NCBI GenBank assembly: GCA_019420525.1
Contig: JAHZHA010000027.1
Coordinates: 38,050-102,049, forward strand
Direction of reading: 5' to 3'
Length of the DNA stretch: 64,000 nucleotides
From: Bacillota bacterium
GTDB taxonomy: Bacteria; Bacillota; Clostridia; Peptostreptococcales; Anaerovoracaceae
In this document: in pieces, positions 2,783 through 56,466 of the stretch
Layout of the letters: each line of letters opens with the position of its first letter
Position numbering within the stretch: position 1 is the first letter of the stretch
Notes under the pieces: model-generated
The model's database searches: none
Told to the model about the DNA's origin: nothing
What the model saw: the letters and a program-made list of their open reading frames with translations, nothing else
Program-made: the position numbers and the translations under genes

Positions 2783-2861
2783 TCGTTCGCCTCCTCTGTC
2801 GATTTTAGCACAGTTTGTTTGAAAATGTGCAACGACATGCTGTACTTTCCCCGATTTTCGA

Positions 2862-4268
2862 TCACCTGATATTTATCTTTTCCCGGCGGATTTTCCCCCA
2901 GGAATACTTCTTTTTTCGGTACCCTATCAGAGAAGTGGCCCGTACCCAGGATAGAATGAAACGCAGACAGGACACTTCCAATGCGCACAGTCCCACAGCT
3001 TTCAGGATATCCCCCGGAGTCAGTTTCAGATCCACAGTCTGAATACGGGCGAAAAAGGCGGTCAGAGATAATACAGCGGAATAAATCACATAAATCGCAA
3101 AGAAAAGGACCATGAAAGGTACATTGATCAAGTCAATAGCAAAAGCCAGTATGACGGTCATAATCCCAAACAATTCAATGTAGGGTGAAAGCAGCTCGTA
3201 CAACAGAAAATAGAGATAAGAGATTAAACCGACCAATCCGTATTTTCGGTTTGCCAAAATCTGCCTGTGACGGCTCATAGATTCAAACAGGCCGATATGC
3301 CAGCGCCGACGCTGTTTGCACAGATCTTTCAGCGTTTCAGGCGCCTGCGTCCAGCAAACGGCATCCGTAGCATACCGAATCCGATAAGGAATATCGTGTT
3401 GGCGGCAAAAAACATGAAGTTTGACCACCAATTCCATATCTTCTCCTACCGTAGTGGGATCATATCCTCCTGCAGAAATCACTAAACTCTTTTTAAACAG
3501 ACCGAAAGCTCCGGAAATAATGATACTTCCGTTGAAACGGTCGAACAGAATTCTCGCTGCAAGAAAAGAACGATCATACTCCAATACTTGCATACATGGA
3601 ATAATTTTTTTTGGCATATGGTAGGAGATGACACGCCCGTTCCGTATCTCAGCGCCGTTACATGGACGCACAGCTCCACCTACTGCTACTACAGATCCGT
3701 CTTCTAGGACCGGTCTTACAATTTTTTCCATAGAATCGTGTTGCAGAACGGAATCCGCATCCATACATACAAAATATGGAAACCTTGAAATATTGATTCC
3801 CATATTCAGAGCGTCCGCCTTACCACCATTTTTCTTGCATACGAGAGTTATAGGGACCTTAAACTCCTGAGTCTCGAAAACTGCATGTTCTTGCTGGCAT
3901 GAAATCATTCTTCGAATCGGTCTTGCCAGCTGTCGCATATGAAAAGTATCCTGAATCAGCTGGGCTGTGCTGTCTGTTGAACCATCGTCCACAATGACGA
4001 TCTCATACAGATGGTAGTCTAAACTCAACAGGGAGCGAATGGTGGAAATAATTGTAACTTCTTCATTATACGCAGGAACAATTATCGTCACTGGCACATA
4101 ATACTCCTGCGGAAGTTCACTTTTCAGCATGTTCCGCTGCTTGAGGCGATACAGCGTCGAAGATCCCACCGTCACGGCCAGAAACAGAAAGGTAGCATAA
4201 CCCACCATATACAGAACGAAAAATATTCCGACATAATTGAAAAATTCTTTCAAAAAGTCCATCGTCAT
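2862..4268 (-). CDS. Processive family-2 glycosyltransferase (PgaC/IcaA/NodC-like beta-glycan synthase), polytopic membrane protein
   Basis: N-terminal TM helices, then VPAYNEE, DDGSTD, CMDAD (DxD) and QRRRW (QxxRW processivity motif), with C-terminal TM helices. The start overlaps the upstream gene's stop (ATGA). Confidence 0.8.
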   Translation of the reverse strand: MTMDFLKEFFNYVGIFFVLYMVGYATFLFLAVTVGSSTLYRLKQRNMLKSELPQEYYVPVTIIVPAYNEEVTIISTIRSLLSLDYHLYEIVIVDDGSTDSTAQLIQDTFHMRQLARPIRRMISCQQEHAVFETQEFKVPITLVCKKNGGKADALNMGINISRFPYFVCMDADSVLQHDSMEKIVRPVLEDGSVVAVGGAVRPCNGAEIRNGRVISYHMPKKIIPCMQVLEYDRSFLAARILFDRFNGSIIISGAFGLFKKSLVISAGGYDPTTVGEDMELVVKLHVFCRQHDIPYRIRYATDAVCWTQAPETLKDLCKQRRRWHIGLFESMSRHRQILANRKYGLVGLISYLYFLLYELLSPYIELFGIMTVILAFAIDLINVPFMVLFFAIYVIYSAVLSLTAFFARIQTVDLKLTPGDILKAVGLCALEVSCLRFILSWVRATSLIGYRKKKYSWGKIRREKINIR

Positions 4269-5386
4269 CTTACATTACCTTCTTTCTGCAGCTTTCCGGA
4301 TTCAATCTGATATTCCAGAATTTCCCTGGCATAGCGGTCTTCTCCTTCAATGATGTCTGTTAGGTCCTCACTACTCACATGTTGGGCCTCCAGACTGGCC
4401 GCGGCAGCGCAACGTACATACCAGTTGACACTGCAAAGGGCCGTTTTCAGCACTTCTATCGTCCTCGGATCCCGGTAAGCTGCCAGTGACGAAACACTCA
4501 CTGTAACGTATTCCCATCGAACGGGATCATCATCTTCAGCGAATTCCAAAAGGAGATCGAACGCCGGAGGATAACGATAGCGTCCGAAATAACGGATGGC
4601 AGCCAGAATAACCTCCTTATCCGCCTCATTTTCTTTCAGCAGACTCAGCATCTCCCTGGTATAGTCACCGCTCTGGAAACGGATATAATTCAGCAGAGCC
4701 AACTGAGTGCGGGGTGTAAACTTTCTGAGATTCTCCCAGATCAGAGTGATGAGCCGGCTGTGATCGCCCTGGTAATCCAAAAGCGTTTCTGTCAGGATTT
4801 TTTCGTGGAAAAAGACGGAATTCTGATCCTGAATCTTCAGTGCAAGGATGATATCTTTCTCGTTTCCGAAAGTACACAGAGCCTTCAGCACATTGACGCT
4901 GCAGTACAAATTGTCTTTTTCCATATAACCCAGCATCACTTCCTGCAGATTCCTTGCCGACAGATGTTCCGGCAGAATGTGTCTGGACAAGAAGAAAGAA
5001 AAATAGGCGGCCTGTGTATTTTCCTTATTCCGGTAGAAGCCGGCCAGCTGAAGGATGCATGGCTGCAGCTGGATTATATAATCCCGGACCGTACGACTTT
5101 TTTCTTCCCCGCTGTTTTCCGAAGAAAGTTCCTGCAGCATCCGGTCAAAGGCGATCAGATTCTTTATGTGTCGTAATTTTTTATGAAGATCGTAAAGATA
5201 TACTTCGTCGATTTTTTCTCCCCGGCATATATGCCTCAGCTGAATTTCCGCATTTTCACGGTATTTCCGCTGCCTCCTCTGCATGCGGGGTTCGCTGCCT
5301 TTCAGCAGAAGTGCGTATGCGACATTGAACAGAATCATGCTGACGCAGACAATTCCGTAGAAATATATCACTATTTCAACTCTCAT
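4265..5386 (-). CDS. Membrane-anchored HEAT/PBS-lyase-like repeat protein of unknown function
   Basis: N-terminal TM segment, then helical repeats including NWYVRCAAAASL (HEAT-like). RBS GGGGAGG. Translationally coupled to the GT2 gene. Confidence 0.55.
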   Translation of the reverse strand: MRVEIVIYFYGIVCVSMILFNVAYALLLKGSEPRMQRRQRKYRENAEIQLRHICRGEKIDEVYLYDLHKKLRHIKNLIAFDRMLQELSSENSGEEKSRTVRDYIIQLQPCILQLAGFYRNKENTQAAYFSFFLSRHILPEHLSARNLQEVMLGYMEKDNLYCSVNVLKALCTFGNEKDIILALKIQDQNSVFFHEKILTETLLDYQGDHSRLITLIWENLRKFTPRTQLALLNYIRFQSGDYTREMLSLLKENEADKEVILAAIRYFGRYRYPPAFDLLLEFAEDDDPVRWEYVTVSVSSLAAYRDPRTIEVLKTALCSVNWYVRCAAAASLEAQHVSSEDLTDIIEGEDRYAREILEYQIESGKLQKEGNVR

Positions 5387-5422
5387 GAAAAGCCTCCCCG
5401 CTTACGGCCGCCGAACTCTGCT

Positions 5423-7672
5423 TTATTTCAGACTGTTCCAGTAATCCCTGAGGATATAGTAGGACTCCTTCAGACGCTCATGATAAGTGACATTCTTTCC
5501 CCAGCCTTCCAGTCTGAAAAAAGACATCCTGACAGTCTCATCCTTTTCTGCTTCTGCAACTGCTCCCGCATATATCCTGTCGATTTCCAGATTCTCGATT
5601 CCGTAATTCTCATAGTAATCGTCATGAATCATCATCTCCGACGGATTCGAGAAATTCAACAGCTGCCACGGAATCCGGATCTCCGCGCCGTCTTCTGTAA
5701 AGCAGTAATCAGCAAGGGAATCGAATTCCGGCGATTCGGGATTGGCATTTCCGTAGCGTAGTTTCCCCGTCTCGTAACTCTCGCCGGTCACGACATTTTT
5801 GTCGGTCTTAGGGACAATCCCTCCTAGTTTTAACGCCAGATTAATATTCACGAAAACGGGGCTGTCTTTTGCCGGCGGATTGACAAAGGGATCCTCTAAA
5901 TAATATGATTGCCAGTAGATCTCTTTCAGCACCTCATAGCGCTCCTGCACCTGTACCCGGCTGTTTTCTCTGCCGCTGACGGTTATGACAAAGTCGCAGG
6001 CGCGGTCAAAGCGGATGCTGTAATTTTCACACAGCTTACTTCCCGACTCCGGTGTCGTGTCCAGCGGGATATAGAGAGTCTCCTTCTCCGGATCGAAGCC
6101 CTCCGCGTAAAAATACAGAAATTTTTCATCGTACTTCATGGAGAGCTTCAGCGTCCCCTCCTGCCAGACGAGATCGCTTTTCTTCCACTCCGACGGATCG
6201 CCGTCCACATAACATACGCTCTCTTCCTCCCCGGGATCGAAGGTCAGTAGACCAAAAAACTGCTCATTCGTCTGATAATCGCTCCAGTAAGGTGTCTTCG
6301 TCAAATCTATTGCATGAAGCGTGTTCCAGGTCCGTTTAAACCACTCGTCCTGCCAGGAAAACAGACAGCTGCCGGCGTTCATGATGTCCTGGTAACACTC
6401 GACGAGATACGTTCCCTGTTCTTCTTCCGAGACAAATCCCTGGCTGCGTCCGGTGTTTTCATCGGTCTGCGCTCTTCCCCTTCCCGTCGTAACTCCATAC
6501 TCAGAGATCACGACCGGAATATTGTGAAAATTGTTGATCGCTTTCAGATAAGCATAATACGTGTTGTATCTGCCGTTTTCGTCGTAATAATCCTCTTCTG
6601 TTAGATATTCGTGGACATTCGGTGCGTTCAGTAGGGAAACCCGATAATTTGTAGCTGCTGCCTGATTTTGACCGAAAATACGGTTCAGCTCCTCGTCGCT
6701 GTAAGCCAGGGCCTTACGCTCCGTCTGCAGATAATCCGGATAATATGCATAGATATGGTAAGATGCGAAATACCCGGACTCGAATTTTTCCGTAGGACGG
6801 ATATGCTCCACGTTGACCGCCGCATTTTTATAGCGGTGAGAAGTAGTCACCAGCGAATAGGAAAAGGGATCTGTCGTGGGCCAGTTGGAAAAGGCGATCA
6901 TCCGCTGTTCCCCGTATCGCTGACTCTCATAGGCGATCAGGGTATCTCCCAGCTGCGCCAGAACCGTCTCAAAGGGAGTGGCGTCAGCCGACGTTTCCAT
7001 ATAGTCTCCCTGCCAGGAAGTCTTGTCGTAATGATTCTGATTCGTGTAAGTCACGAGGCTCGCTTCCCACTCTACTCCCAGGATGTAGCCCAGAACCCAC
7101 CGGGATACGTCGTGACGGTAAAATCCCGATCCGTCTCCGTCGCGGCCCAGGAGAAACTTCTTTCCGTGGATAATGTCGATGATCGTCTTGCCGTCCTCGG
7201 TCATCTCCGGCAGAATTCCGTCATCATACGCGTCTTTATGAGAATTGTGGGAATAGTCGTCCACCCAGAGTCCGTGAATGAGCCACAGAGGCTCTTTTCC
7301 CTCTTCTTCCCGCTGCGTGTTGTATTCGTAAAAAGCGTTGTAAAAATCGTCGTGGTGAATCGTGTAGATCCGGATGGTATTTGCTCCCAGTTCCTGGATC
7401 ATTCCGAACCAGCGAAGGTAAGTCTCCTTGTCGATGGCAAAGTCAGTAGCCCACTCTCCCGGCATGCCGGCTCCCAGATCGACGCCTCTGATTTCGAAAG
7501 GCTCGTAGCTTCCGTCTCGTTCCATGTAGATGGTGTCGCTGTCAGTCTTCATAAAGGCAGTCACCTGACCGCCGGATAAAAAAGCCGGATAGATACCCAG
7601 AGCGTAATACGCATACCAGACTGCGGCCGCCATCAGCACCGCCAGGCTGACGCCGATGATAAATTTTTTCAT
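5423..7672 (-). CDS. Membrane-anchored extracytoplasmic TIM-barrel glycoside-hydrolase-like protein (clan GH-A-like)
   Basis: N-terminal signal anchor. RGVDLG...GANTIRIY (beta-strand/NxxR-like) and PVVISEYGVTTG (nucleophile-like hhSEYG) motifs typical of clan GH-A. RBS GGAGGAG. Confidence 0.5.
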   Translation of the reverse strand: MKKFIIGVSLAVLMAAAVWYAYYALGIYPAFLSGGQVTAFMKTDSDTIYMERDGSYEPFEIRGVDLGAGMPGEWATDFAIDKETYLRWFGMIQELGANTIRIYTIHHDDFYNAFYEYNTQREEEGKEPLWLIHGLWVDDYSHNSHKDAYDDGILPEMTEDGKTIIDIIHGKKFLLGRDGDGSGFYRHDVSRWVLGYILGVEWEASLVTYTNQNHYDKTSWQGDYMETSADATPFETVLAQLGDTLIAYESQRYGEQRMIAFSNWPTTDPFSYSLVTTSHRYKNAAVNVEHIRPTEKFESGYFASYHIYAYYPDYLQTERKALAYSDEELNRIFGQNQAAATNYRVSLLNAPNVHEYLTEEDYYDENGRYNTYYAYLKAINNFHNIPVVISEYGVTTGRGRAQTDENTGRSQGFVSEEEQGTYLVECYQDIMNAGSCLFSWQDEWFKRTWNTLHAIDLTKTPYWSDYQTNEQFFGLLTFDPGEEESVCYVDGDPSEWKKSDLVWQEGTLKLSMKYDEKFLYFYAEGFDPEKETLYIPLDTTPESGSKLCENYSIRFDRACDFVITVSGRENSRVQVQERYEVLKEIYWQSYYLEDPFVNPPAKDSPVFVNINLALKLGGIVPKTDKNVVTGESYETGKLRYGNANPESPEFDSLADYCFTEDGAEIRIPWQLLNFSNPSEMMIHDDYYENYGIENLEIDRIYAGAVAEAEKDETVRMSFFRLEGWGKNVTYHERLKESYYILRDYWNSLK

Positions 7673-7694
7673 ATCTCAGTCTCCTCCGGATGAA

Positions 7695-9173
7695 TCAGTG
7701 ATCGTAAACCTTATTACGGGACGGATGACAGTACTGGCGCAGGGAATGAATATTATCATCCAGCCAGTCTCCCCGCTCACACAGCCATTCCTTCAGCTGC
7801 CGGACAGCCTCATCCTGGCTGTAGACATTGCGTGAGACGGGTGTCATAGGTTCCCACTGGGTCATAGCTTCCTTCCATTTCTGATTATTGCGCTCCAGAG
7901 CCGGACCGAGAAATTCCAGAGTCTCGTCGATATAACTCATCAGGTATTCTTCCGACAGCACCGTGCTGCGCAGCTCTTCGTAGCGCTTCAGGATCCGCTC
8001 CACGAAATTCTCCGATTTACAGAGCATAAGATACAGATTTTGATCTACCATTACAAAGTCGTACGGAGGCAGCGGATCGTCGGGATAATTGTCGCAGGAA
8101 TTATTGAAGTCCCAGACTGCCATTTTATATTTTCCGGACATATCCTTGTAGATATAAGTGGAATACCGGCCGGCGTCCGCATTGATCGAAAATTCGTTGA
8201 TCAGAAAGTAATCGACAAAACTTTCTACGTCGATATAATTCCAGTAGCCGTACTCGTCGGTATCGTAATCGTACGAGTAGAGCGCTTTTTCGAATTCGGC
8301 GTAATCCAGTTCGATCTCCTGGCGCATCTCCTCCGTCAGATTGGCGCGCTTCGGATAGCGGATCAGAATATCGGTGCGCAGCGTCAGCATGCGTTCCAGA
8401 TAGGAGTAGATATCCCGGATGCTTCCCAGATTTTCTTCCGTGGTCCGGTCTCCCCGCAGCAGATAGCCGGAGATTTTCGTATTCTGTTCCGAATCGCTGA
8501 GATTGAGCCTGCAGTTTTCCCCGTCTGTAATCGTTTCGATCATCAGATAGAGGCCTCTGTATTCTCCGTTCAGAATCACCTCGCAGTAGCGCACATTCGG
8601 CGCCCACTCCATGATCTCTCCGGAAATGTTATACCACATATAGTTTCTTACGAGAGATTTGTCCAGATAAGGTCCATACAACACCCACTCGTTATGGGCA
8701 GACATGCCCATGACCTCGGCGGGGGCATCTTCCCCTTTTTCGTTCACGAATTTCAGCTGGTAAGGGCTTTTCTCAAAATAGCGCGACGCATGACCTCTGA
8801 TGCGGATCTCCGTCTCCGTCACTAGAGCGGCCTGGTCCGAGGGATGATTGTTCCGGTCACTGTTATCGATGACAGAAAGGCTGGCGTTGATGACGTCTCT
8901 GCCGTCCGCTGCCAGCGAATTGATCGATTCTCCGAACGCATCTCGTTGCCCTGTGACCGCCCCTGGGATCTCCTGCCCCCGGGTATCTATGATGACCAGC
9001 GGAAGATGTGTACATAGCTCGCTGCCGTCGCAGTCGCATCCGGAGTCGGGCTGCCGGGCCGTCAGATGCTGATGAACGCGGTTATGTGTTTCCTCACCGC
9101 TCAATACGATAAATACCAGAAGGAGAAAAAGCATTCCGCAGAGAGCCAGCACAGATGTAACTCGATATTTCAT
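7695..9173 (-). CDS. CotH kinase-family protein with N-terminal signal/TM segment
   Basis: The CotH signature region RYCEVILNGEYRGLYLMIE matches the conserved V.LNGEYWGLY..E motif of CotH atypical kinases. RBS AAAGAGG. Confidence 0.7.
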   Translation of the reverse strand: MKYRVTSVLALCGMLFLLLVFIVLSGEETHNRVHQHLTARQPDSGCDCDGSELCTHLPLVIIDTRGQEIPGAVTGQRDAFGESINSLAADGRDVINASLSVIDNSDRNNHPSDQAALVTETEIRIRGHASRYFEKSPYQLKFVNEKGEDAPAEVMGMSAHNEWVLYGPYLDKSLVRNYMWYNISGEIMEWAPNVRYCEVILNGEYRGLYLMIETITDGENCRLNLSDSEQNTKISGYLLRGDRTTEENLGSIRDIYSYLERMLTLRTDILIRYPKRANLTEEMRQEIELDYAEFEKALYSYDYDTDEYGYWNYIDVESFVDYFLINEFSINADAGRYSTYIYKDMSGKYKMAVWDFNNSCDNYPDDPLPPYDFVMVDQNLYLMLCKSENFVERILKRYEELRSTVLSEEYLMSYIDETLEFLGPALERNNQKWKEAMTQWEPMTPVSRNVYSQDEAVRQLKEWLCERGDWLDDNIHSLRQYCHPSRNKVYDH

Positions 9174-9202
9174 GAAGTACCTCTTTTTCTGGGATAAACA
9201 AA

Positions 9203-9895
9203 TCAGCTGCTGATCTCGTCATTCTGCATCACAAGATTACAGTATTCGATATTTCCTATATCATAAATAGCATCCGTAATACTTTTTTCTCCAGAGTTCC
9301 GCCTGTTTCTGTCCATCTTATTTTTTGCACGCCGGCTCAGCTCGTAGATAAATTCCACGCTGTCTTCCGTCGTATTTTTTACTCTCAGGGCAGCTTTTCT
9401 GTCATAGTACCGGAAGATCAACGCTTCCACTGTTTCCTCATTCATCCTGACGGTGCGTATGATCAGTAAGAGACGGTCATCGTTTTTAATCCTTCCGAAA
9501 ATCAGGAAAATCAGAAAAGTAAAAGCGCTCCCTGTACCCGCCGCCAGAAAATCACCGGCGCCGCAGCATATACCGGCCACAATGGCCCAGAAAATATAGA
9601 TCGTATCCCGTGAATCCTTAATCGCCGTCCGGAAGCGAACGATGGACAGAGCACCCACCATTCCCAGCGACAATGCGATATTATTTCCGATAACGATCAT
9701 GACTGCTGTGGTTATCGTCGTGAGTGCAATCAGAGAAACGTTGAATTTCTTACTATAAATACTCCCCTCATGAGAAAGCATATAGGACAGATAGATAAAA
9801 AACGCGATCACTGTACCTGCCAACATTCTCAGAATGATAATCCTGGGTTCCAGCTGCCCGCTGTTTTCCAGTAAATCCAACAACATACTTCTCAT
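9203..9895 (-). CDS. Polytopic membrane protein, probable DUF4956-family (partner of VTC/CotH)
   Basis: Multiple TM helices then a charged C-terminal domain. The ORF-track start (GTG at 9937) overlaps the VTC gene. ATG at 9895 (MRSMLLDLLENSG) has RBS AAAGAGAAGGTG and is preferred. Confidence 0.5.
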   Translation of the reverse strand: MRSMLLDLLENSGQLEPRIIILRMLAGTVIAFFIYLSYMLSHEGSIYSKKFNVSLIALTTITTAVMIVIGNNIALSLGMVGALSIVRFRTAIKDSRDTIYIFWAIVAGICCGAGDFLAAGTGSAFTFLIFLIFGRIKNDDRLLLIIRTVRMNEETVEALIFRYYDRKAALRVKNTTEDSVEFIYELSRRAKNKMDRNRRNSGEKSITDAIYDIGNIEYCNLVMQNDEISS

Positions 9896-9911
9896 AATTG
9901 ACACCTTCTCT

Positions 9912-10607
9912 TTACAAACTAAATTTAAGACTGGCACTTCTTCCCAGGCAATATTTGCTCACCGACAGCGCTGAACGGTCGGCATCGTTAATCAGAGCTT
10001 TTATGTAACTGAGAAGAAAACCGTTGTATTTCACTTCCAGAACCCCGTTGAAAGGATCCATCACAGGATACAGATTGAGCTGCGGAGAAAAAAGTTCAAA
10101 ACAGCACTCGGTAGCCCGGATATCCCTGTCAAAAGTGATGCGTATCTTATTTTCTCTGGCGACGAAAGCTGTACGCCTGTACTCGATGACTGTCTTGGGC
10201 CGGTAGCATTTCCGGTGCATGAGGCCATAGCACTCCGCCGCAAAAGGATTGCTGTATCTCAGTAGATTATCGTAACGTCCCGCAGCCATCTCCTCAGCGT
10301 CTTTCCGGCTTATGCGCAGAGAACGTTTTTTCTGATATGCTCCCTCTTTCTGCTTCATTTCCAGCATGGCGAATTCCGAAGCGGGATCATAAATCCGAAG
10401 ACGGATTTTCCGGCGGAGTTCGATACCGTCTAATTTTTCATGATAATCACTGTCGTATAGAGTGTCAAAGTAAAGTGAGCGAATAGAATATCCCTGTGAT
10501 CCATTGTGTGCATCCTGAATCATTACCTTGCTCAGCTTTGCCGACAGCCTGTCCATGTCCGCCACTGTCATGAAATATTTTTTCTCCTGCCGATATACCT
10601 CGTTCAA
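9912..10607 (-). CDS. VTC-domain (polyphosphate-polymerase-like / triphosphate-tunnel) protein
   Basis: N-terminus ...YRQEKKYF... and overall composition match bacterial VTC/CYTH-like domain proteins. TTG start with RBS GGAGGTG at 7 nt. First gene after a 5'UTR hairpin. Confidence 0.6.
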   Translation of the reverse strand: MNEVYRQEKKYFMTVADMDRLSAKLSKVMIQDAHNGSQGYSIRSLYFDTLYDSDYHEKLDGIELRRKIRLRIYDPASEFAMLEMKQKEGAYQKKRSLRISRKDAEEMAAGRYDNLLRYSNPFAAECYGLMHRKCYRPKTVIEYRRTAFVARENKIRITFDRDIRATECCFELFSPQLNLYPVMDPFNGVLEVKYNGFLLSYIKALINDADRSALSVSKYCLGRSASLKFSL

Positions 10608-10711
10608 CCGATCACACCTCCAAAAGAAGAAATGACCTACCTGAATGATAGAATCATTTCTTCTTCCTCATCTTTCAATCCATCCCAAATACAGATATTG
10701 TACATTTCCCG

Positions 10712-11074
10712 TCAATCCAACGCCAGTAAGTTCTCTGTCGCATGGTGAAACAGGTTCTCCAACTCCGGCATCGCCGCTGCTGCTGCTGTCAGATCTCCTC
10801 TGCGAAGATCTTCTGTCATGATGCTAATCTTCTGGTAAAGCTCTTTCAGGGATAGATTTCCCGTAAGCCCTTTGAGAGCATGAGCTGCTTCAAATGCCTG
10901 AGAGATGTTCTGTTCCTCCATCGCCTGTTTTAGACGGAAAAAATTATTATCTTCTGTAAAACGCAGAAGCATTTTAAGCATCAGTGTTTCGTTATTCATA
11001 AATCGGGCCAGCGCATCTTCGATATCGACTCCTGCTTCCTCTAAAAGTTTTTTTTCATCTCTTCCATCACTCAA
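10712..11074 (-). CDS. Histidine phosphotransfer (Hpt) protein
   Basis: AHALKGLTGNLSL contains the HxxKG phospho-His motif. The start is ambiguous: TTG at 11074 (overlapping the upstream gene by 8 nt) or ATG at 10999. The ORF-track start at 11161 is an over-extension into the upstream gene. Confidence 0.6.
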   Translation of the reverse strand: MSDGRDEKKLLEEAGVDIEDALARFMNNETLMLKMLLRFTEDNNFFRLKQAMEEQNISQAFEAAHALKGLTGNLSLKELYQKISIMTEDLRRGDLTAAAAAMPELENLFHHATENLLALD

Positions 11075-12176
11075 ACACTCCTTCTGTTTTTCGGTAAAAC
11101 CGGCGCAGCATTGGCTCTTCCTTTCTGAAATATTCCAACAGCTCAGGATTAAAAACCCCACACTGCCCTTCCAAAATCATTTGCATAGCGGTGTCAGCCG
11201 GCATAGCATCCTTATAGCACCTTTTGCTCACCAGAGCATCGTACACATCCGTCAATGAAACGATCTGCGTCCAGATAGGAATTTCATCACCTGCCAGCTG
11301 ATCAGGATAACCACCTCCGTCCCAGCGTTCATGATGATGAAGAGCGATATCATAGGCATAGTGATAAGCAGAATGCTCTCTCATTTGAGGTATCTGTGAC
11401 AGAAGTTCTGCGCCCCTTACAGTATGAGACTTCATGAGCTCATACTCTTCCGGGGTCAATCTTCCCTTTTTATTAAGAATGGCATCCGGAATCGAAATTT
11501 TCCCCACATCATGAGTGATAGCCCCCATTCCGATCAGCATGATCTCATTTTCCGTAAGACCTTCTCCCAGAGGTGTTTCTCTCAGAAGGTGGCAGGTGAT
11601 ATCGTGAATCCGCCGAACATGCTCACCGGATTCATCACTTCGGAATTCAATAGCTGCAGACAGCGCTTCAACCATTCCCATGCTCATATCCGCCATCTGC
11701 TGGGTCTGAATCAGCAACTGATCTCTCTGCCGTTCCACTTCAGCTCCGAGCCTTTGCCTTGCACGAAAAAGTTCGACCACGGAATTAACCCGCCGCCGGA
11801 CCACATAAGGTACCACCGGCTTTAATATGAAATCCATAACACCCAGATCATAAGCCTCTCTCATGGTAGAATCAGCCGCATCAGCGGTAATCAGAAAAAC
11901 GGGAATACTGCCGGTCATCCCCCGTTTCTGAAGTTCGCGGAGCATCTCTATCCCGTCGATCTTCGGCATCATCACGTCAAGCAAAATAGCACAAATATTA
12001 TTTTGGTGTTCCAGCGCCGCAGCGAGACCTGCTTCACCGTCCGCTGCCTCTAAAATTCCGTATTCCGAATCAAATATATTCGCAAGAATCATCCGATTGA
12101 TTTCCTCATCATCTACGATGAGAATATTTTCTTTTCTGGAATCTTCCAATTTCAAAGCCTCCTGTCTGTCACTCAC
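11067..12176 (-). CDS. Response regulator with HD-GYP domain (c-di-GMP phosphodiesterase, RpfG-like)
   Basis: Receiver ILIVDDEE...DVMMPKIDG plus the HD-GYP signature HHERWDGGGYP. GTG start overlapping the kinase stop (GTGA). An alternative TTG at 12149 has GGAGG 8 nt upstream. Confidence 0.8.
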   Translation of the reverse strand: MSDRQEALKLEDSRKENILIVDDEEINRMILANIFDSEYGILEAADGEAGLAAALEHQNNICAILLDVMMPKIDGIEMLRELQKRGMTGSIPVFLITADAADSTMREAYDLGVMDFILKPVVPYVVRRRVNSVVELFRARQRLGAEVERQRDQLLIQTQQMADMSMGMVEALSAAIEFRSDESGEHVRRIHDITCHLLRETPLGEGLTENEIMLIGMGAITHDVGKISIPDAILNKKGRLTPEEYELMKSHTVRGAELLSQIPQMREHSAYHYAYDIALHHHERWDGGGYPDQLAGDEIPIWTQIVSLTDVYDALVSKRCYKDAMPADTAMQMILEGQCGVFNPELLEYFRKEEPMLRRFYRKTEGVFE

Positions 12177-14737
12177 ATTTCATCCTGCCCGGATGGTTTC
12201 CGAGCACTTCTGCGTTCCTCCATCAATCTTATGAGAGTCTGCTTCAATATCTCACTGTTTATCGGTTTGGATACATGATCGTCTATCCCGGCCTGAGCAG
12301 TCCGGGCAATGTCTTCAGGAGACACATTGGCAGTCACCGCGACAATCGGTACACTGCCGGCATCCGCTCTGTCCAAATGCCGGATAATCGCTGAAGCCTG
12401 ACAGCCATCCATCACAGGCATCTGCATATCCATCAGAATTGCATCTACAGAATAGGACTGCGCGGATTTAAATACCTGGACAGCTTCTTTTCCATTTTCA
12501 GCCGTTATCACATCTGCCCCAAACTGCCGTAGAATCTCAGTGATAATCTCTCTGTTGAGATCATTATCTTCTGCCACCAAGACAGTACGGCCGGTCAGAT
12601 CTGCACTATATTCTTCTGTCCGTATACTGACTTTATCCTCTTCTATATCGTAACGTTCACATACCTCCAGAGGAAGTGTCACCGTAAAGCGCGAACCTTT
12701 CCCCAATGTACTTTCTACCGTAACCTCTCCGTTCATCTGCTGGACCAAACTCTTGACGATAGGCATTCCCAGACCGGTACCGGACACCGGATGTGAACGG
12801 AAAACTGTCTCTCGCACATAAGGATCAAAAAGGTGCTCCAAAAAACTCTCGGACATGCCGATACCCGTGTCTTCTACCACAATCTGATATTTACTATGCT
12901 GTTGAAAATCAAACTGTCTTGCCTTAAGACGGATAGAATCTCCGGAATTGCTGTATTTTACAGCATTTGAAAGAAGGTTATTAAGGATCTGAATAATCTT
13001 ATTTTCATCGCCGATTACAACCTCATTCTGAAAATCTATGCTGGTTTCCAGATGTTTTCCCTGCTCGTCTATTCGATCATGAAAAAGATCTGCCACCTCA
13101 TTCAACAGCTTTTTTAAATTAAATTCCTTCTGATCCAGGCTATCTTTTACGGCTTCTGAACGTGAAAGTTCCAGAATATCATTGATCAGTTCCAAAAGCT
13201 GTTTGCCTGCAAACTCAATTTTTCCCAGATATTCTCCGACTTTGCCTATATTACCTTCTTTTTGACTTTTTTCAGCCAATTCACAGCATCCGATGATAGC
13301 GTTGAGAGGTGTTCGCATATCGTGGGACATCCTGCTGAAAAATGCCAGTTTTTCTTCCGTGCCTTTACGGGCTGCATCCAGTGCATCCTGCAGAAGAATT
13401 GTCGCCTTCAGTTCACGCCTTTTTTCTTCGTCCACATCTCTGAAACACAATATTACTTCATCGGGAGCTAGTTTTTTGTTATAAAGAGTACGAATATTAA
13501 CCCATCGGTATGTATCTCCAAATTTTCTCTGATAATCGCCACCGTAATCTGTCACGCCATCTTCGATCCGCTGCCGGATATTCTGCAGTGAAAAATTTTC
13601 TTTAAAAGCCTGATATACTTCTGGCTTCACCAAAAGCTGCATAGTATCTACAAAAAAAGAATAATCTCCGTTTTCCGGAATTCTTTTTCCAAGATCCTGA
13701 TACGTTTTAATTCCTTCATAGGTACCTGACTCTACATTAATTCTGAAAACAGCATGAAATGATTCTCCCAATATGTGAACTGTATCATCTGCCTTTTTCA
13801 ACACACGGCTTTTAACCGCATCATGTATTGTCATAAAGGCCAGCAGAAGAAACAATATGAGGGCCAGACCTGACATCAGATAAATAGTGGCATTCGGTTC
13901 TCCCATCAAAATAGACCTGGAAGGGATCATCATAATCGCAGTCCATCCATTATCCATTACTCTGTGATAGATCCCGCAGGAAGACCCGTTCAAATCTTCC
14001 ACAAAAGCATCATAATCCAGTAAAGAACCGTCAGAAATACCTTCCATTATATTATCAACATACCCCTGCAGCTGATCTGCATCAACTACTCCTGCAGCAT
14101 TTGCATAGATAAGAAGCCCTCCCTCATCGCACAAAAAATATGAACAACCATCCGGCATCGTCTGTGCAGACTGGTGCAGATCAGGATTCTGAACAAAGAT
14201 GTCCATAGCCACCACATTGCCGTCATGCTTTAAAGCTTGGGAAACAGTCAGAACTCGCTGACCGGTCACAGCATCTTTATATACGTCTCCCGACACAATT
14301 TGTCCCTGCGCTTCCACAGCTTGTAAATACCATGCAGTCTCACTGTAGAGATAATCTTCGTCGCCTTCCCAGGGATTTGCTGCTACAATTTTTCCATCAA
14401 TTACCGCATAAATATCCACCAAGTCCTCGCCGACAACCCCCGTAAACTTGTGATAGTAACCTTCCAGCCACTGCTGAATTTCCTCAAAGTCACTTCCATT
14501 TTCCAACATTTCATCGATGTATTGACCGATAACTATGAGGTTTCCTTCGAGATCAGAAAGATTCGTTTCTTCTTCTTTCGCATAACTGTAAGTCAAAGCC
14601 ATTCCCAGATTCTGAGCATTTTCCAGCAATTTATTGCGTACCAGAAAAATGGAGAAGATCAGAACAAATGATACGATCAAAAGAAGAGATATATTCAAAA
14701 CAACATTATGCCTGTAAAAAAAATTTCGTTTTCTCAT
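12173..14737 (-). CDS. Hybrid sensor histidine kinase (TM - extracytoplasmic Cache-like sensor - TM - PAS-like - HisKA - HATPase - receiver)
   Basis: H-box SHDMRTPLNAI, ATPase G-boxes (DTGIGM, GTGLGM) and a C-terminal receiver LVAEDNDLNREI...DMQMPVMDG. ATG at 14737 is preferred over TTG at 14743. Confidence 0.8.
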   Translation of the reverse strand: MRKRNFFYRHNVVLNISLLLIVSFVLIFSIFLVRNKLLENAQNLGMALTYSYAKEEETNLSDLEGNLIVIGQYIDEMLENGSDFEEIQQWLEGYYHKFTGVVGEDLVDIYAVIDGKIVAANPWEGDEDYLYSETAWYLQAVEAQGQIVSGDVYKDAVTGQRVLTVSQALKHDGNVVAMDIFVQNPDLHQSAQTMPDGCSYFLCDEGGLLIYANAAGVVDADQLQGYVDNIMEGISDGSLLDYDAFVEDLNGSSCGIYHRVMDNGWTAIMMIPSRSILMGEPNATIYLMSGLALILFLLLAFMTIHDAVKSRVLKKADDTVHILGESFHAVFRINVESGTYEGIKTYQDLGKRIPENGDYSFFVDTMQLLVKPEVYQAFKENFSLQNIRQRIEDGVTDYGGDYQRKFGDTYRWVNIRTLYNKKLAPDEVILCFRDVDEEKRRELKATILLQDALDAARKGTEEKLAFFSRMSHDMRTPLNAIIGCCELAEKSQKEGNIGKVGEYLGKIEFAGKQLLELINDILELSRSEAVKDSLDQKEFNLKKLLNEVADLFHDRIDEQGKHLETSIDFQNEVVIGDENKIIQILNNLLSNAVKYSNSGDSIRLKARQFDFQQHSKYQIVVEDTGIGMSESFLEHLFDPYVRETVFRSHPVSGTGLGMPIVKSLVQQMNGEVTVESTLGKGSRFTVTLPLEVCERYDIEEDKVSIRTEEYSADLTGRTVLVAEDNDLNREIITEILRQFGADVITAENGKEAVQVFKSAQSYSVDAILMDMQMPVMDGCQASAIIRHLDRADAGSVPIVAVTANVSPEDIARTAQAGIDDHVSKPINSEILKQTLIRLMEERRSARKPSGQDEM

Positions 14738-14778
14738 GTACAAACACCTATCCAGGAATTTTCATCGTTTCTGCGGAT

Positions 14779-15521
14779 TTATTTTTTAATTTCAGATTCA
14801 TACTCTGGATCCATTCTGTGAGGCTTTCCACAACAGTCATTCTTCTCATAAAAAGACTTTTTCTCCTTATACATTTTCATTTCCGCCTCCCAAATAAGTT
14901 TTTCTATATCCACACTGCCGCCTTTTTGTCCAGCTAATCCCATCGATATATGATAACCTTCCGTTTCCACGAAATGACATACCTCATTTAGACGATCTGT
15001 AATCGAATCTTTTCCTGCACCGGTTTTTCCAAAATATAATAACAATATACAGCAGAGTGATGACAGTGGCCACAGTGCCCATAATGAGGATGACCACGTT
15101 GATATCTTTTACGCTGGCGAAAGCCACACTCTCTGGTACAGTAAGCTGTATAGATCAGTTATTGATATCTGCCGGCTGATAACGAGTATAATAATATTCA
15201 TCTGCCTTGCTGGAAAAAAGACATAATAACCTGATCTGCCGCTGATGAATTTAGTTTTTTTCTATTTCATCACGATTCGTAATTTTTTCTGAAACCAGCG
15301 TTCCTGAGATAAGTTCCAAATTTTCCCGATTTGATTCTATAAAACGCTGCAGAGCATCTGAGGCATCTTCTGCAACGCTTTCCATTTCAGAATAACAATC
15401 TTCCATCGTCATTTTCTAAAAAACATGCGTGGTGAACACATAACAGCTGCCCAACAGAAAAATCAATAACAATGACAAGAGAATATTGCTATGAAATTCT
15501 TTCTTTATTTTACGCTTTATA
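14779..15521 (-). pseudogene. Decayed GGDEF-domain (diguanylate cyclase) sensor gene: remnant pieces in three frames
   Basis: RBS GGAGGTGA then TTG opens a TM-like N-terminus (...FHSNILLSLLLIFLLGSCYVF) that stops after about 35 codons. A 54-aa piece follows (MTMEDCYSEMESVAEDASDALQRFIESNRENLELISG...). A second TM-like piece (MGTVATVITLLYIVIIFWKNRCRKRF) frameshifts into an 88-aa ORF that matches only the last third of a GGDEF domain (YHISMGLAG...DIEKLIWEAEMKMYKEKK). Confidence 0.45.
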
Positions 15522-15960
15522 TACAGCAACTAGTCACCTCCTACCTCACTTTACGGCAGTTTTCTGATGTAAGCTGTCGTTTATCACATGATGATCTTCA
15601 TATGAAATAAGAGTGGAGGAAATATCCTTCCGAGAATGAAAAGCGATTGTTGTCTGCTATATCCCGCATCCCTTAAACTGTGCCGGCTAAAACAGAAAAC
15701 ATTTCCCTCTCGCCTGACTCTTTCTGAATATTAATTATATATAAGTTATATTCTCCTTTCAAGGTAGGAAAAAACGCTCACTCACTAAGAATTTCAGTTG
15801 TTTTGCCGTATTCATTTATAAATTAAGTCCATCTAAATATAATACAAAATAGATTTTATGTATGTATATAATAGAATCAAGATCGTAAAAAATATTTATT
15901 TGGCATAAATGTCGGAATTCATAAAATTCAATTGAATCTGCAGATCTCACTTCCAGTAAT

Positions 15961-15996
15961 CACAAAAACTGCCGCAGGATTAAACTCCTGCGGCAG
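15961..15996 (-). terminator. Intrinsic terminator downstream of the SLH surface-protein gene
   Basis: Perfect stem CTGCCGCAGGA/TCCTGCGGCAG with a 5-nt loop, followed on the minus strand by TTTTTGTG. Confidence 0.55.
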
Positions 15997-16013
15997 TCTG
16001 AGATCAGAATAAA

Positions 16014-18947: not shown

Positions 18948-19119
18948 CCTCCCCCTTCCTTTTTTCTCAGCATTATCTTCTGCGACCGGATTTCTCTTCT
19001 CTCCGAAAGGAAAATTCCGGTTCCGCATCAATTTTACTACACATCTTTTTACACTGTAAATCCGTCCAAAGTATGATTCCTGCCGTTTTCCGGCCCGAAA
19101 AAAGAAAAATTTCTTTTTT

Positions 19120-19368
19120 TCACCTTTGATCGCTGACGGACGCGCTGCTGTTGCCGGCCTCCAGAGCGGAAACGGGGTCATACGTCGCCTCCTGACTGCC
19201 GTCTCCACCGGGAAGCGCACCTTCCTTCACATACAGATTATATGTGTCCGGACCGGCGCTTCCGGCAGGACCCGTGACTCCTGTCGCTCCTGTCGGGCCC
19301 GGAATTTGACACATCTGTATGCATGGTATACAGTAGTTTATATAAAATCCGTTTTGATCATAATGCAT
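19120..19368 (-). CDS. Small Cys-containing protein with a short collagen-like G-X-Y tract
   Basis: RBS GGAGG 7 nt before ATG (MHYDQNGFYINYCIPCIQMCQIP...). Six consecutive GXY triplets (GPTGATGVTGPAGSAGP). Lies directly upstream of, and co-directional with, the SLH protein gene. Confidence 0.4.
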   Translation of the reverse strand: MHYDQNGFYINYCIPCIQMCQIPGPTGATGVTGPAGSAGPDTYNLYVKEGALPGGDGSQEATYDPVSALEAGNSSASVSDQR

Positions 19369-19542: not shown

Positions 19543-19709
19543 TTTATAAATTTTTTGCACTGCATTGCGTCCTGCTTCAGGATGCGAGATCAACAGTACA
19601 AACTGAGCAGGCGATAGACCGATAGGTTTATGGGGCCGGGCCGCTGATGCGGCAGCAGATTGTCATTAACATCTGTGGGACAGTTGTATGTTCCGCAGAT
19701 GTTTTTTTA
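19543..19709 (+). promoter_or_regulatory. Structured 5' leader with intrinsic terminator (attenuator) upstream of the CDF exporter; candidate metal (NiCo/czcD-type) riboswitch
   Basis: An 8-bp hairpin GCGUCCUG-CUU-CAGGAUGC. Further GC stems, then the terminator ACATCTG...CAGATGT + TTTTTTT at 19669-19709, about 90 nt before the start codon at 19796. Confidence 0.35.
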
Positions 19710-19795
19710 TTCATTCGAAGAACAGATTATCTCGAAAAGTGCTCATGAGAGAATTATCACTGCCATCATATGTGACAAAACAGGAGGATACCTTT

Positions 19796-56463: not shown

Positions 56464-56466
56464 ATG

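What the first reader, a model, noticed from the sequence alone, without database searches (positions are those of the whole stretch)
10712..14737. c-di-GMP-degrading phosphorelay (hybrid kinase -> Hpt -> REC-HD-GYP) placed directly upstream of and co-oriented with the polymer locus
Seen in the sequence:
- A hybrid histidine kinase with an extracytoplasmic Cache-like sensor (HisKA SHDMRTPLNAI, C-terminal receiver).
- A receiver/HD-GYP protein (HHERWDGGGYP), coupled to the kinase by a GTGA overlap.
- A stand-alone Hpt protein (AHALKGLTGNLSL).
- Only about 105 nt, containing a 13-bp inverted repeat, separates the Hpt gene from the first gene of the VTC/CotH/GT2 operon.

Established knowledge: HD-GYP domains hydrolyse c-di-GMP, and c-di-GMP commonly gates exopolysaccharide synthases.

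Inference: an environmental signal sensed by the Cache domain lowers c-di-GMP through a three-step phosphorelay. This may be read through into, or co-regulate, the downstream polymer genes. The layout kinase -> HD-GYP RR -> separate Hpt is unusual.
Basis: partly seen in the sequence, partly recalled or inferred. Interest (0 to 1): 0.6.

Follow-up and report, generated by a model that had tools for sequence, protein, structure and literature searches.

The report
Phosphorelay driving a c-di-GMP phosphodiesterase
A membrane sensor kinase, a small phosphate-carrier protein and a regulator that destroys the bacterial signal c-di-GMP sit in front of a surface-polymer operon; the trio is real and common in gut Clostridia, but this genome has lost both the enzyme that makes the signal and the RNA switch that reads it in related species.

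Summary
The three genes are real. They are a dCache hybrid histidine kinase (12173-14737), a REC-HD-GYP response regulator (11067-12149 or 12176) and a stand-alone Hpt (10712-11074), all on the minus strand with every catalytic residue present.

The layout is not unusual. A stand-alone Hpt gene lies next to the REC-HD-GYP gene in 47 of 64 gut-Firmicutes-type loci. Other phyla fuse the Hpt into the neighbouring kinase, as in RpfC/RpfG.

Relatives show the ancestral unit: diguanylate cyclase, kinase, regulator, Hpt, then a c-di-GMP-I riboswitch with a terminator, then VTC-DUF4956-CotH-750aa-HEAT-GT2. The riboswitch (70-77 bits in five species) lies exactly in the Hpt-VTC spacer.

This window is a decayed or rewired version:
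- The cyclase is a pseudogene (14803-15529).
- The riboswitch is absent; a 104-nt spacer holds an AU-rich hairpin and no strong terminator.
- An A8 tract, where sister strains have A9, puts the normal Hpt start codon out of frame.

Kinase, regulator and Hpt remain under purifying selection. Verdict: a new member of a known kind, of moderate interest.

The parts
15734..15762 (-). Promoter-like site (TTGAAA, 17 nt, TATAAT; 11 of 12 matches). It lies upstream of the cyclase remnant and is the likely promoter of the whole cassette.
   Evidence: A consensus match only; function not shown.
14803..15529 (-). Pseudogene of a TM-Cache-TM-GGDEF diguanylate cyclase. Four fragments sit in different frames, and the sensor core and the whole GGDEF catalytic core are deleted.
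   Evidence: tblastn with the intact neighbour genes of L087 gives three groups of matches. Sensor residues 1-91 match 15529-15257 (E 1.7e-18). Sensor residues 243-298 match 15243-15077 (E 3e-13). GGDEF residues 5-25 match 15076-15014 and residues 292-358 match 15003-14803 (E 1.6e-18). A GGDEF profile hits the remnant at E 7.7e-11. Pfam alone did not recognise the fragments.
12173..14737 (-). Hybrid sensor histidine kinase, 854 aa: TM, dCache/PDC sensor, TM, an unassigned linker of about 150 aa, HisKA, HATPase, REC.
   Evidence: The best NCBIfam matches to the core are TorS, BarA, LuxQ and ArcB, all below their cut-offs.
11067..12176 (-). REC-HD-GYP response regulator of the RpfG family. The probable start is the TTG at 12149 (360 aa); the alternative is the GTG at 12176 (369 aa, GTGA overlap).
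10712..11074 (-). Stand-alone Hpt phosphotransfer protein, with the phospho-accepting histidine in AAHALKG. The canonical ATG at 11065-11067 is out of frame here because of the A8 tract at 11048-11055.
10608..10711 (-). Hpt-VTC spacer of 104 nt with an AU-rich hairpin (arms 10624-10635 and 10654-10665) directly 5' of the VTC Shine-Dalgarno GGAGG. It occupies the position where relatives carry a c-di-GMP-I riboswitch and terminator.
   Evidence: No Rfam match. Not called as a terminator.
428..10607 (-). Co-oriented downstream genes: VTC (9912-10607), DUF4956 (9203-9895), CotH (7695-9173), a 749-aa protein (5423-7672), a HEAT-repeat protein (4265-5386), a PgaC-like GT2 synthase (2862-4268) and a MalT/LuxR-type regulator (428-2782).
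   Evidence: The gene order matches C. perfringens NELoc-2 as tabulated in PMC2879425.

Best explanation
This is a four-step phosphorelay of the RpfC/RpfG type with the Hpt module on its own gene.

**Inferred mechanism.** An unknown extracellular ligand acts on the dCache sensor of the hybrid kinase. Phosphate then passes from H472 to the kinase's own receiver D770, to His63 of the Hpt protein (numbered on the 118-aa form that starts at the canonical ATG), and finally to D58 of the regulator (360-aa numbering). Phosphorylation switches on the regulator's HD-GYP domain, which hydrolyses c-di-GMP. The domains and residues are shown; the phosphate flow and the enzyme activity are inferred.

**Ancestral unit.** The relay is one half of a conserved operon: diguanylate cyclase, kinase, regulator, Hpt, c-di-GMP-I riboswitch with terminator, then the polymer genes VTC-DUF4956-CotH-750aa-HEAT-GT2. 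In that form c-di-GMP made by the cyclase probably lets transcription read through the riboswitch terminator into the polymer genes, and the relay shuts this off by removing c-di-GMP. The riboswitch is shown in relatives; its polarity is inferred.

**This genome.** The cyclase has decayed to a pseudogene and the riboswitch has been replaced by a 104-nt spacer with a weak hairpin. The polymer genes are therefore most likely simply co-transcribed with the relay. Any remaining c-di-GMP effect on the polymer must run through the global pool or an unidentified protein receptor. In this strain the Hpt start is also frameshifted (A8 where sister strains have A9), so the relay may be weakened or off.
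For: **Domains and residues**
- Domains and catalytic residues of all three proteins are intact.
- The HD-GYP domain aligns with active enzymes: PmGH 4MCW (8.4e-34), PA4781 4R8Z (1e-30) and V-cGAP3 5Z7C (2.4e-26). The equivalents of E185, H189, H221, D222, H250, H276, H277, D305 and K225 are all present.
- The Hpt profile hits solved Hpt domains and has an invariant histidine.

**Gene neighbourhood**
- A stand-alone Hpt lies next to the REC-HD-GYP gene in 47 of 64 Firmicutes-type loci and in 0 of 25 loci from other phyla. In 9 of those 25 the Hpt is fused to the adjacent hybrid kinase.
- A kinase lies within 3 kb in 38 of the 64 loci.
- A GGDEF gene lies directly upstream of the kinase or regulator in all close relatives with enough flank.
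- A c-di-GMP-I riboswitch (RF01051, 70-77 bits against a gathering score of 35) starts 0-25 nt after the Hpt stop in L007, L014, L088, L091 and L097. In L008 it lies after the regulator.

**Riboswitch logic in relatives**
- The 5' arm of the terminator overlaps the 3' strand of aptamer stem P2 in all of them.
- Enforcing the aptamer removes the bottom 4 bp of the terminator, at a cost of 5.6 kcal/mol.
- No promoter-like site lies between the Hpt gene and the aptamer in three relatives.

**State of this window**
- Cyclase pseudogene.
- No riboswitch.
- No strong terminator and no promoter-like site in the spacer.
- A8 tract.
- The relay genes are under purifying selection against the riboswitch-less relative L096: dN/dS is 0.06 for the regulator, 0.10 for Hpt and 0.13 for the kinase.
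Against: - No biochemistry was done. Phosphotransfer order, activation by phosphorylation and substrate are all inferred from family knowledge (Galperin and Chou, bioRxiv 10.1101/2021.11.05.467447).
- The ON polarity of the relatives' riboswitch rests on a 3-4-nt overlap and a thermodynamic model. A 15-bp stem 3 nt from the U tract might still terminate.
- The polymer locus contains no recognisable c-di-GMP receptor domain; Pfam finds no PilZ, GGDEF or EAL in it. In this genome the link to the polymer is only adjacency and co-orientation.
- The A8 tract could be an assembly error. L001, which shares it, is 99.995% identical to the window and is not independent.
- The hairpin with its four trailing U could act as a partial terminator.
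Confidence: 0.6

Rival explanations
1. The relay is as described and c-di-GMP still gates the polymer machinery in this species, but at the protein level. The receptor would be the PgaC-like GT2, the HEAT-repeat membrane protein or the 749-aa protein.
For: - The relay genes stay under purifying selection in the clade that lost the riboswitch.
- The GT2 is closest to PgaC/IcaA (TIGR03937, 3e-44, below cut-off). From general knowledge, PgaC-PgaD of E. coli is allosterically activated by c-di-GMP.
- Cassette and operon stay adjacent in three riboswitch-less lineages: the window, L096 and L087.
Against: - No PilZ, I-site-bearing GGDEF, EAL or other known receptor domain occurs in any of the seven downstream proteins.
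- The local cyclase is dead, and no other GGDEF or EAL gene lies in the 64 kb.
Confidence: 0.25
2. In this strain the module is a decaying remnant. With the cyclase deleted, the riboswitch gone and the Hpt start out of frame, the relay no longer signals and its position next to the polymer genes is only an evolutionary leftover.
For: - Pseudogene, missing riboswitch and A8 frameshift.
- Sister strain L004 has a split kinase and a broken CotH.
- L089 has most of the polymer locus deleted next to an IS110.
Against: - Kinase and regulator are full-length with all catalytic residues.
- The regulator is 100% identical across six strains.
- dN/dS is 0.06-0.13.
- Four of six strain records carry A9 and one carries A8G, so the frame is intact in most of the population.
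- Hpt can still be read from the TTG at 11074.
Confidence: 0.2
3. The kinase phosphorylates the regulator directly from its histidine. In that case the kinase's own receiver and the Hpt form a side branch or phosphate sink, or feed another regulator, and are not the main path.
For: - The kinase and regulator genes are adjacent or overlapping.
- Pseudoflavonifractor (L091-L093) keeps the regulator and Hpt but has no adjacent kinase.
- Angelakisella (L094) keeps the kinase and regulator but has no called Hpt.
Against: - The regulator-Hpt pair is the most conserved adjacency: 47 of 64 loci, against 38 of 64 for a kinase within 3 kb.
- Where no separate Hpt exists, in other phyla, the neighbouring kinase carries the Hpt itself.
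- From general knowledge, hybrid kinases of the TorS, BarA, LuxQ and ArcB class use Hpt relays.
Confidence: 0.12
4. The HD-GYP domain does not act on c-di-GMP. It would instead act on 3'3'-cGAMP or pGpG, or work as a non-catalytic partner of GGDEF proteins, as reported for Xanthomonas RpfG.
For: - V-cGAP3, a cGAMP-specific HD-GYP, is the third-best solved relative.
- Some RpfG-family members signal through protein contacts.
Against: - The full metal-ligand set and the E-S-G version of the E/D-T-G trinuclear signature are present.
- In relatives a GGDEF gene lies immediately upstream and a c-di-GMP-I riboswitch immediately downstream.
Confidence: 0.08

Closest known systems
RpfC/RpfG of Xanthomonas (DSF signalling) and the RpfG family of REC-HD-GYP response regulators
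   Same: A hybrid sensor kinase feeds, through an Hpt step, a REC-HD-GYP regulator that lowers c-di-GMP and controls extracellular polymer or biofilm traits. The regulator has the defining REC plus HD-GYP architecture. In Proteobacterial loci recovered with this regulator, the adjacent kinase carries HisKA, REC and Hpt together.
   Different: Here the Hpt is a separate 118-120-aa gene downstream of the regulator. The sensor is an extracytoplasmic dCache and not the RpfC membrane sensor. No rpfF-like gene is present. Unlike X. campestris RpfG, which lacks two metal ligands (PMC4159591), this protein has all eight.
LuxQ-LuxU-LuxO and similar relays with a stand-alone Hpt (for example Pseudomonas HptB)
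   Same: A hybrid kinase without its own Hpt uses a small separate Hpt protein. The kinase core scores against the LuxQ, TorS, BarA and ArcB models. The Hpt profile hits the solved Hpt 7C1I and the Hpt domains of BarA, ArcB and YojN.
   Different: The output here is an enzyme (an HD-GYP phosphodiesterase) and not a transcription factor or anti-sigma pathway. The three genes are contiguous.
Characterised HD-GYP phosphodiesterases: PmGH (4MCW), PA4781 (4R8Z), TM0186
   Same: The HD-GYP fold is recognisable by sequence and all metal ligands are present. PA4781 and TM0186 are also REC-HD-GYP proteins.
   Different: Sequence identity is modest and confined to the HD-GYP domain. The metal content and activity of this protein are unknown.
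Operons gated by c-di-GMP-I (GEMM-I) riboswitches in Clostridia and Bacilli
   Same: In six related species an RF01051 aptamer with an overlapping terminator precedes the output genes: VTC...GT2, or an adhesin operon in Faecalibacterium gallinarum.
   Different: The aptamer lies inside the operon, 0-25 nt after the Hpt stop and directly behind the genes that make and break its ligand. The window itself has no aptamer.
C. perfringens NELoc-2, and the cotH/PPP/DUF4956 accessory genes of Gram-positive pel loci
   Same: The downstream genes have the same order and sizes as CP4_0463-0468: VTC 230, membrane protein 222, CotH 497, hypothetical 685, HEAT 377, GT2 466 (PMC2879425). CotH, VTC and DUF4956 also accompany pel operons (PMC7112168). 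In Angelakisella the cassette sits next to PelF/PelG-CotH-VTC-DUF4956.
   Different: NELoc-2 is preceded by a sigma factor gene and not by this relay. Sequence identity to the C. perfringens proteins was not measured here.

Membership tests
RpfG family (REC-HD-GYP response regulator) | N-terminal receiver with acidic pocket, phospho-acceptor Asp, conserved Thr and Lys | tested here: met
   Pfam Response_reg 3.2e-22. D13/D14, D58, T88 and K110 in 360-aa numbering.
RpfG family (REC-HD-GYP response regulator) | HD-GYP domain with the HD motif and HHExxDGxGYP | tested here: met
   HD_5 1.2e-28 and HD 1.9e-14. ITHDVGK and HHHERWDGGGYP are present.
RpfG family (REC-HD-GYP response regulator) | Complete metal-ligand set of active HD-GYPs (PmGH E185, H189, H221, D222, H250, H276, H277, D305) plus K225 | tested here: met
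   The alignment to 4MCW mapped onto PMC4159591 gives E173, H177, H213, D214, H242, H272, H273, D301 and K217.
RpfG family (REC-HD-GYP response regulator) | Phosphorylation-dependent hydrolysis of c-di-GMP | not testable with these tools
   Needs an enzyme assay.
Hybrid histidine kinase (phosphorelay class) | HisKA with H-box His, HATPase with N, G1 and G2 boxes, C-terminal receiver with Asp | tested here: met
   H472, N591, D623 (G1), G653 (G2) and D770.
Hybrid histidine kinase (phosphorelay class) | Extracytoplasmic double-Cache sensor between two transmembrane segments | tested here: inconclusive
   MCP-like_PDC_1 scores 29.1 bits (cut-off 27). dCache_1 scores 33.7 bits, below its cut-off of 45. 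Two hydrophobic segments flank residues 39-280. No structure was predicted.
Hpt phosphotransfer protein | Hpt domain with the phospho-accepting His in an HxxKG motif | tested here: met
   Pfam Hpt 27.5-27.9 bits against a cut-off of 24.6. H63 and K66 are invariant in 25 homologues. The profile hits solved Hpt domains: 7C1I (4e-8), CheA P1, YojN, BarA and ArcB.
Hpt phosphotransfer protein | Intact open reading frame from the family's usual start codon | tested here: not met
   The A8 tract at 11048-11055 puts the ATG at 11065-11067 out of frame. Sister strains have A9 or A8G. Only the TTG at 11074, with poor SD spacing, keeps the frame.
RpfC/RpfG DSF system in the strict sense | Hpt fused to the kinase, with an rpfF-type signal synthase nearby | tested here: not met
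   The kinase has no Hpt domain. No enoyl-CoA-hydratase-type gene is among the annotated neighbours.
Operon gated by a c-di-GMP-I riboswitch | RF01051 aptamer in the leader of the regulated genes | tested here: not met
   The window has no match at gathering score and none at E<=1 in 10400-16200. The feature is met in relatives L007, L014, L088, L089, L091, L097 and L008.
NELoc-2-type polymer locus | Gene order VTC, DUF4956, CotH, ~700-aa protein, HEAT protein, GT2 synthase | tested here: met
   Domain order and sizes match the table in PMC2879425. Sequence identity to the C. perfringens proteins was not tested.

The most novel reading that the evidence does not exclude
The cassette would be a self-contained c-di-GMP circuit embedded in one operon. 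It would have its own cyclase, its own phosphorelay-controlled phosphodiesterase and its own intra-operonic riboswitch, and it would be dedicated to one NELoc-2-type polymer. That would be local c-di-GMP signalling written into a single transcript.

On this reading the window shows the circuit being rewired: the cyclase and riboswitch are lost, a MalT-type regulator sits at the 3' end, and the A8/A9 tract at the Hpt start works as a slipped-strand on/off switch for the relay.
Probability: 0.15. Interest if true: 0.6.

Novelty: new member of a known kind. Interest (0 to 1): 0.38.

Why it matters
HD-GYP enzymes are the main c-di-GMP hydrolases of Clostridia, yet almost nothing is known about how they are controlled there.

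This work shows that a REC-HD-GYP regulator paired with a stand-alone Hpt gene is a recurrent module in gut Firmicutes. In Oscillospiraceae it is wired, through a c-di-GMP-I riboswitch, to a VTC-DUF4956-CotH-GT2 locus of the NELoc-2 type. The product and role of that locus are unknown, and it is associated with necrotic-enteritis strains of C. perfringens.

That gives a concrete handle for switching the locus on and identifying its polymer: raise c-di-GMP, or delete the regulator.

The window itself is a natural comparison case in which the RNA switch and the cyclase have been lost.

Tried and rejected
- **Exact look-ups.** Looking up the 369-aa regulator found nothing. The public gene call is the 360-aa form.
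- **Cyclase remnant.** Pfam on the upstream ORF fragments gave no GGDEF hit. blastx against the first set of loci found matches only in the same species. The pseudogene was recognised only with the intact neighbour genes of L087 and a GGDEF profile.
- **Hidden riboswitch in the window spacer or upstream region.** Rejected.
- **Strong intrinsic terminator in the spacer.** None found by the scanner. The hairpin is AU-rich and its U run is part of the stem.
- **Organism name from cluster members.** None given. The nearest named relatives are Oscillospiraceae MAGs and isolates: Anaeromassilibacillus, Flavonifractor, Pseudoflavonifractor and Angelakisella.
- **Literature.** Searches for a Clostridial kinase-Hpt-HD-GYP relay, and for a c-di-GMP riboswitch in front of CotH/VTC genes, found nothing specific.
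- **Amino-acid-sensing dCache.** Judged unlikely from reading the sequence: TAWY stands where, as recalled from general knowledge, the amino-acid-binding motif has RxWY. This was not tested further.

Full report
**What is in the window.** Coordinates 428-15762 hold a run of co-oriented minus-strand genes. The finding covers three of them.

The kinase (12173-14737, 854 aa from ATG) has these Pfam matches:
- HisKA, 2.5e-16
- HATPase_c, 1.6e-27
- a C-terminal receiver, 2.6e-23
- MCP-like_PDC_1 in the N-terminal region, 29.1 bits (cut-off 27)
- dCache_1 in the N-terminal region, 33.7 bits (below its cut-off of 45)

The sensor region lies between two hydrophobic segments. H472, the N, G1 and G2 boxes and receiver D770 are present. 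The kinase core resembles the phosphorelay kinases TorS, BarA, LuxQ and ArcB.

The next gene encodes a receiver plus HD-GYP protein. The third encodes an Hpt protein. Its Pfam score is 27.5-27.9 bits against a cut-off of 24.6. The histidine of AAHALKG is invariant in 25 homologues. A profile of those homologues finds solved Hpt domains: 7C1I, CheA P1, YojN, BarA and ArcB.

**Corrections of detail.**
- *Regulator start.* The GTGA overlap between kinase and regulator exists. However, the public gene call (P0001, 360 aa) starts at the TTG at 12149, 8 nt after an AGGAGG. The 88%-identical orthologue P0002 has its ATG at the same codon. The start is ambiguous, but the two genes are at most 24 nt apart.
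- *Hpt start.* Four sister-strain records (96-99% DNA identity) start at an ATG that overlaps the regulator stop (TGATG) and read ATG GAA GAG ATG AAA AAA AAA CTT. A fifth has AAG as the last lysine codon. The window has one A fewer (A8 at 11048-11055), so that ATG ends in a stop after eight codons. Only a TTG at 11074, placed 3 nt after the GGAG, keeps the frame. L001 also has A8, but it is 99.995% identical to the window and so is not independent. This may be an assembly error, a null allele or slipped-strand variation.
- *Spacer.* It is 104 nt long with a perfect 12-nt inverted repeat. The hairpin folds at about -20 kcal/mol, z = -2.9.

**Is the enzyme competent?** The HD-GYP domain aligns with PmGH (4MCW, 8.4e-34), PA4781 (4R8Z, 1e-30) and V-cGAP3 (5Z7C, 2.4e-26). 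I mapped the alignment onto the mutational study of PmGH (PMC4159591). All eight metal ligands, K225 and D308 have equivalents: E173, H177, H213/D214, H242, H272/H273, D301, K217 and D304. An E-S-G triplet stands where the trinuclear subgroup has E/D-T-G. The receiver has D13/D14, D58, T88 and K110. By sequence the protein is an active member of the RpfG family as defined by Galperin and Chou. That paper also reports that phosphodiesterase activity in this family depends on receiver phosphorylation.

**Is the layout unusual?** No. I fetched 80 loci from reference genomes with the regulator as query and further metagenome contigs for close homologues. I marked genes with iterated profiles.
- A stand-alone Hpt ORF lies directly beside the REC-HD-GYP gene in 47 of 64 Firmicutes-type loci: 32 downstream and 15 upstream.
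- In 25 loci from other phyla it never does. In 9 of those the adjacent hybrid kinase carries the Hpt itself, which is the RpfC arrangement.
- The order kinase, regulator, Hpt seen in the window is the rule among relatives whose regulator is at least 68% identical.

The conserved pairing is good comparative evidence that Hpt serves this regulator. The module is a split-gene version of the RpfC/RpfG relay. I found no paper describing it in Clostridia, and the HD-GYP survey does not mention Hpt.

**The wider unit seen in relatives.** Two further elements recur.

*A diguanylate cyclase gene.* It lies immediately upstream of the kinase, or of the regulator where the kinase is missing. This holds in L007, L008, L009, L010, L011, L012, L014, L087, L088-L090, L091-L093, L094 and L097.

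*A c-di-GMP-I riboswitch.* In L007, L014, L088/L089, L091 and L097 the spacer between Hpt and VTC contains an RF01051 aptamer scoring 70-77 bits against a gathering score of 35. In Faecalibacterium gallinarum (L008) the aptamer follows the regulator and precedes a MotA-EAL protein and a SpaA-fold surface protein.

The aptamer starts 0-25 nt after the Hpt stop. No promoter-like site lies in the preceding 500 nt in three relatives. The riboswitch is therefore probably inside the operon; this is an inference.

A long terminator follows the aptamer. Its 5' arm (GGCUGCAAA...) overlaps the 3' strand of aptamer stem P2 in every case. With the aptamer enforced, the terminator loses its four bottom pairs and ends 3 nt before the U tract, at a cost of 5.6 kcal/mol. 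That fits an ON switch in which c-di-GMP allows read-through into the polymer genes. It is a model and not a measurement.

**The downstream operon.** VTC-DUF4956-CotH-750aa-HEAT-GT2 follows the cassette in:
- the window species (L001-L006)
- L096
- L087
- L088/L090
- L091-L093
- L007
- L014

In Angelakisella a PelF/PelG-CotH-VTC-DUF4956 set lies just upstream of the cassette. In gene order and sizes the locus matches NELoc-2 of necrotic-enteritis C. perfringens (PMC2879425). The CotH/VTC/DUF4956 trio is a known accessory set of Gram-positive pel loci (PMC7112168). The GT2 is closest to PgaC/IcaA, below cut-off.

**What has happened in this genome.**
- *Cyclase.* The 1.27 kb between the kinase and the terminator of the upstream SLH-protein gene has no long ORF. 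The intact neighbour genes of L087 (a Cache sensor plus a GGDEF gene, regulator 82% identical) match it in four pieces in different frames. These cover sensor residues 1-91 and 243-298 and GGDEF residues 5-25 and 292-358. The sensor core and the whole catalytic GGDEF core are deleted. A GGDEF profile still detects the C-terminal remnant at E 7.7e-11. The same decayed region is present in the sister strains.
- *Riboswitch.* No Rfam family matches anywhere in 10400-16200, even at E<=1, and the window holds no c-di-GMP riboswitch at all. The two closest relatives also lack it: L096 has a 74-nt spacer and L087 has about 27 nt. The loss is therefore clade-wide. The window's hairpin sits where the relatives' terminator sits, directly 5' of the UUGGAGGUG ribosome-binding site. 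It is AU-rich, its U run is part of the stem, and the scanner does not call it a terminator.
- *End of the locus.* A MalT/LuxR-type regulator (428-2782) closes the locus. Relatives have a coiled-coil protein and a protein with a degenerate GGDEF and an EAL domain there.
- *Other c-di-GMP genes.* No other GGDEF, EAL, HD-GYP or kinase gene lies in the 64 kb.
- *Selection.* The relay is not simply rotting. Against L096, dN/dS is 0.06 for the regulator, 0.10 for Hpt and 0.13 for the kinase. The regulator is identical in six strain records.

**Most likely mechanism.** An unknown ligand is sensed by the dCache domain. Phosphate then passes from H472 to D770, to the Hpt histidine, to D58 of the regulator, which activates the HD-GYP and lowers c-di-GMP. 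Ancestrally this opposed the neighbouring cyclase and set the state of the intra-operonic riboswitch, and so set expression of the polymer genes.

In this genome the polymer genes are probably co-transcribed with the relay from the promoter-like site at 15734-15762 (11 of 12 matches), through a weak hairpin. c-di-GMP can then act on the polymer only through the global pool or an unidentified protein receptor. The domains, residues, synteny and the riboswitch in relatives are shown. The direction of phosphate flow, activation by phosphorylation, substrate, riboswitch polarity and co-transcription are inferred.

**Rivals.**
No receptor domain was found.
- The module is a decaying remnant in this strain.
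- Phosphotransfer runs directly from kinase to regulator, with Hpt as a side branch.
- The domain has a substrate other than c-di-GMP or a non-catalytic role.

The report sections give the evidence and the refuting result for each.

**Verdict.** The relay and its tie to the polymer locus are real at the level of the gene family. But the arrangement is ordinary for gut Clostridia, it belongs to a known kind (RpfG-family phosphorelay plus c-di-GMP riboswitch control), and in this window the c-di-GMP link is eroded.

The useful new points are comparative:
- a recurrent REC-HD-GYP plus stand-alone Hpt module in Firmicutes
- an intra-operonic c-di-GMP-I riboswitch in front of NELoc-2-type loci
- a natural lineage that has lost both the cyclase and the switch

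Noticed in passing
window 14803-15529 (-): Pseudogene of a TM-Cache-TM-GGDEF diguanylate cyclase. It survives as four fragments, the catalytic core is deleted, and the same state is seen in all sister strains. Relatives carry an intact cyclase at this position, of two unrelated sensor types.
   Followed up: yes
window 11048-11055 (-): A8 homopolymer where sister strains have A9 or A8G. It puts the usual Hpt start codon out of frame. It could be an assembly error, a null allele or slipped-strand phase variation.
   Followed up: partly
L088 11457-11543; L091 11455-11540; L007 11906-11993; L014 11881-11967; L097 7593-7679; L008 11083-11169: c-di-GMP-I riboswitches with overlapping terminators lie directly behind the Hpt gene (behind the regulator gene in L008) in related species. 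They appear to be intra-operonic. L008 has a second aptamer at 8381-8472 on the other strand.
   Followed up: yes
window 19593-19685 (+): NiCo riboswitch (RF02683, 86 bits) immediately before the ORF at 19688-20839. The identical public contig annotates that ORF as a cation-efflux (CDF) transporter.
   Followed up: no
window 56391-57121 (-) and 20922-21007 (-): A cluster of seven tRNA genes, and one further long-arm tRNA gene.
   Followed up: no
window 16014-19220 (-), terminator 15966-15999: Large surface protein of about 970-1068 aa with SLH domains, followed by a strong 14-bp GC-rich terminator. This marks the upstream boundary of the cassette.
   Followed up: no
window 428-2782 (-): A MalT-like TPR plus LuxR (GerE) regulator closes the polymer locus. 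Relatives instead have a 170-176-aa coiled-coil protein and an SBP-TM-degenerate-GGDEF-EAL protein. This may be regulatory replacement.
   Followed up: partly
L096 1-4026 versus window 10728-13671: Mosaic relatedness. The C-terminal 498 aa of the kinase are 98% identical to the window (dS 0.07), but the regulator, Hpt and VTC are 88, 76 and 87% identical (dS above 1). This implies a recombination breakpoint at the kinase-regulator junction. Sister strain L004 likewise has a divergent Hpt 3' half and spacer, a split kinase and a broken CotH.
   Followed up: partly
L089 11596-16350: A strain variant in which a deletion joins a truncated VTC gene to a GT2 remnant. A coiled-coil protein, a GGDEF-EAL protein and an IS110 transposase follow. 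Most of the polymer locus is lost while the cassette and riboswitch stay.
   Followed up: no
window 12173-14737 (-), kinase residues ~310-455: A cytoplasmic stretch of about 150 aa between the second transmembrane segment and HisKA has no Pfam match and may be a divergent PAS-like domain. The dCache has TAWY where, as recalled from general knowledge, amino-acid-binding dCache domains have RxWY.
   Followed up: no
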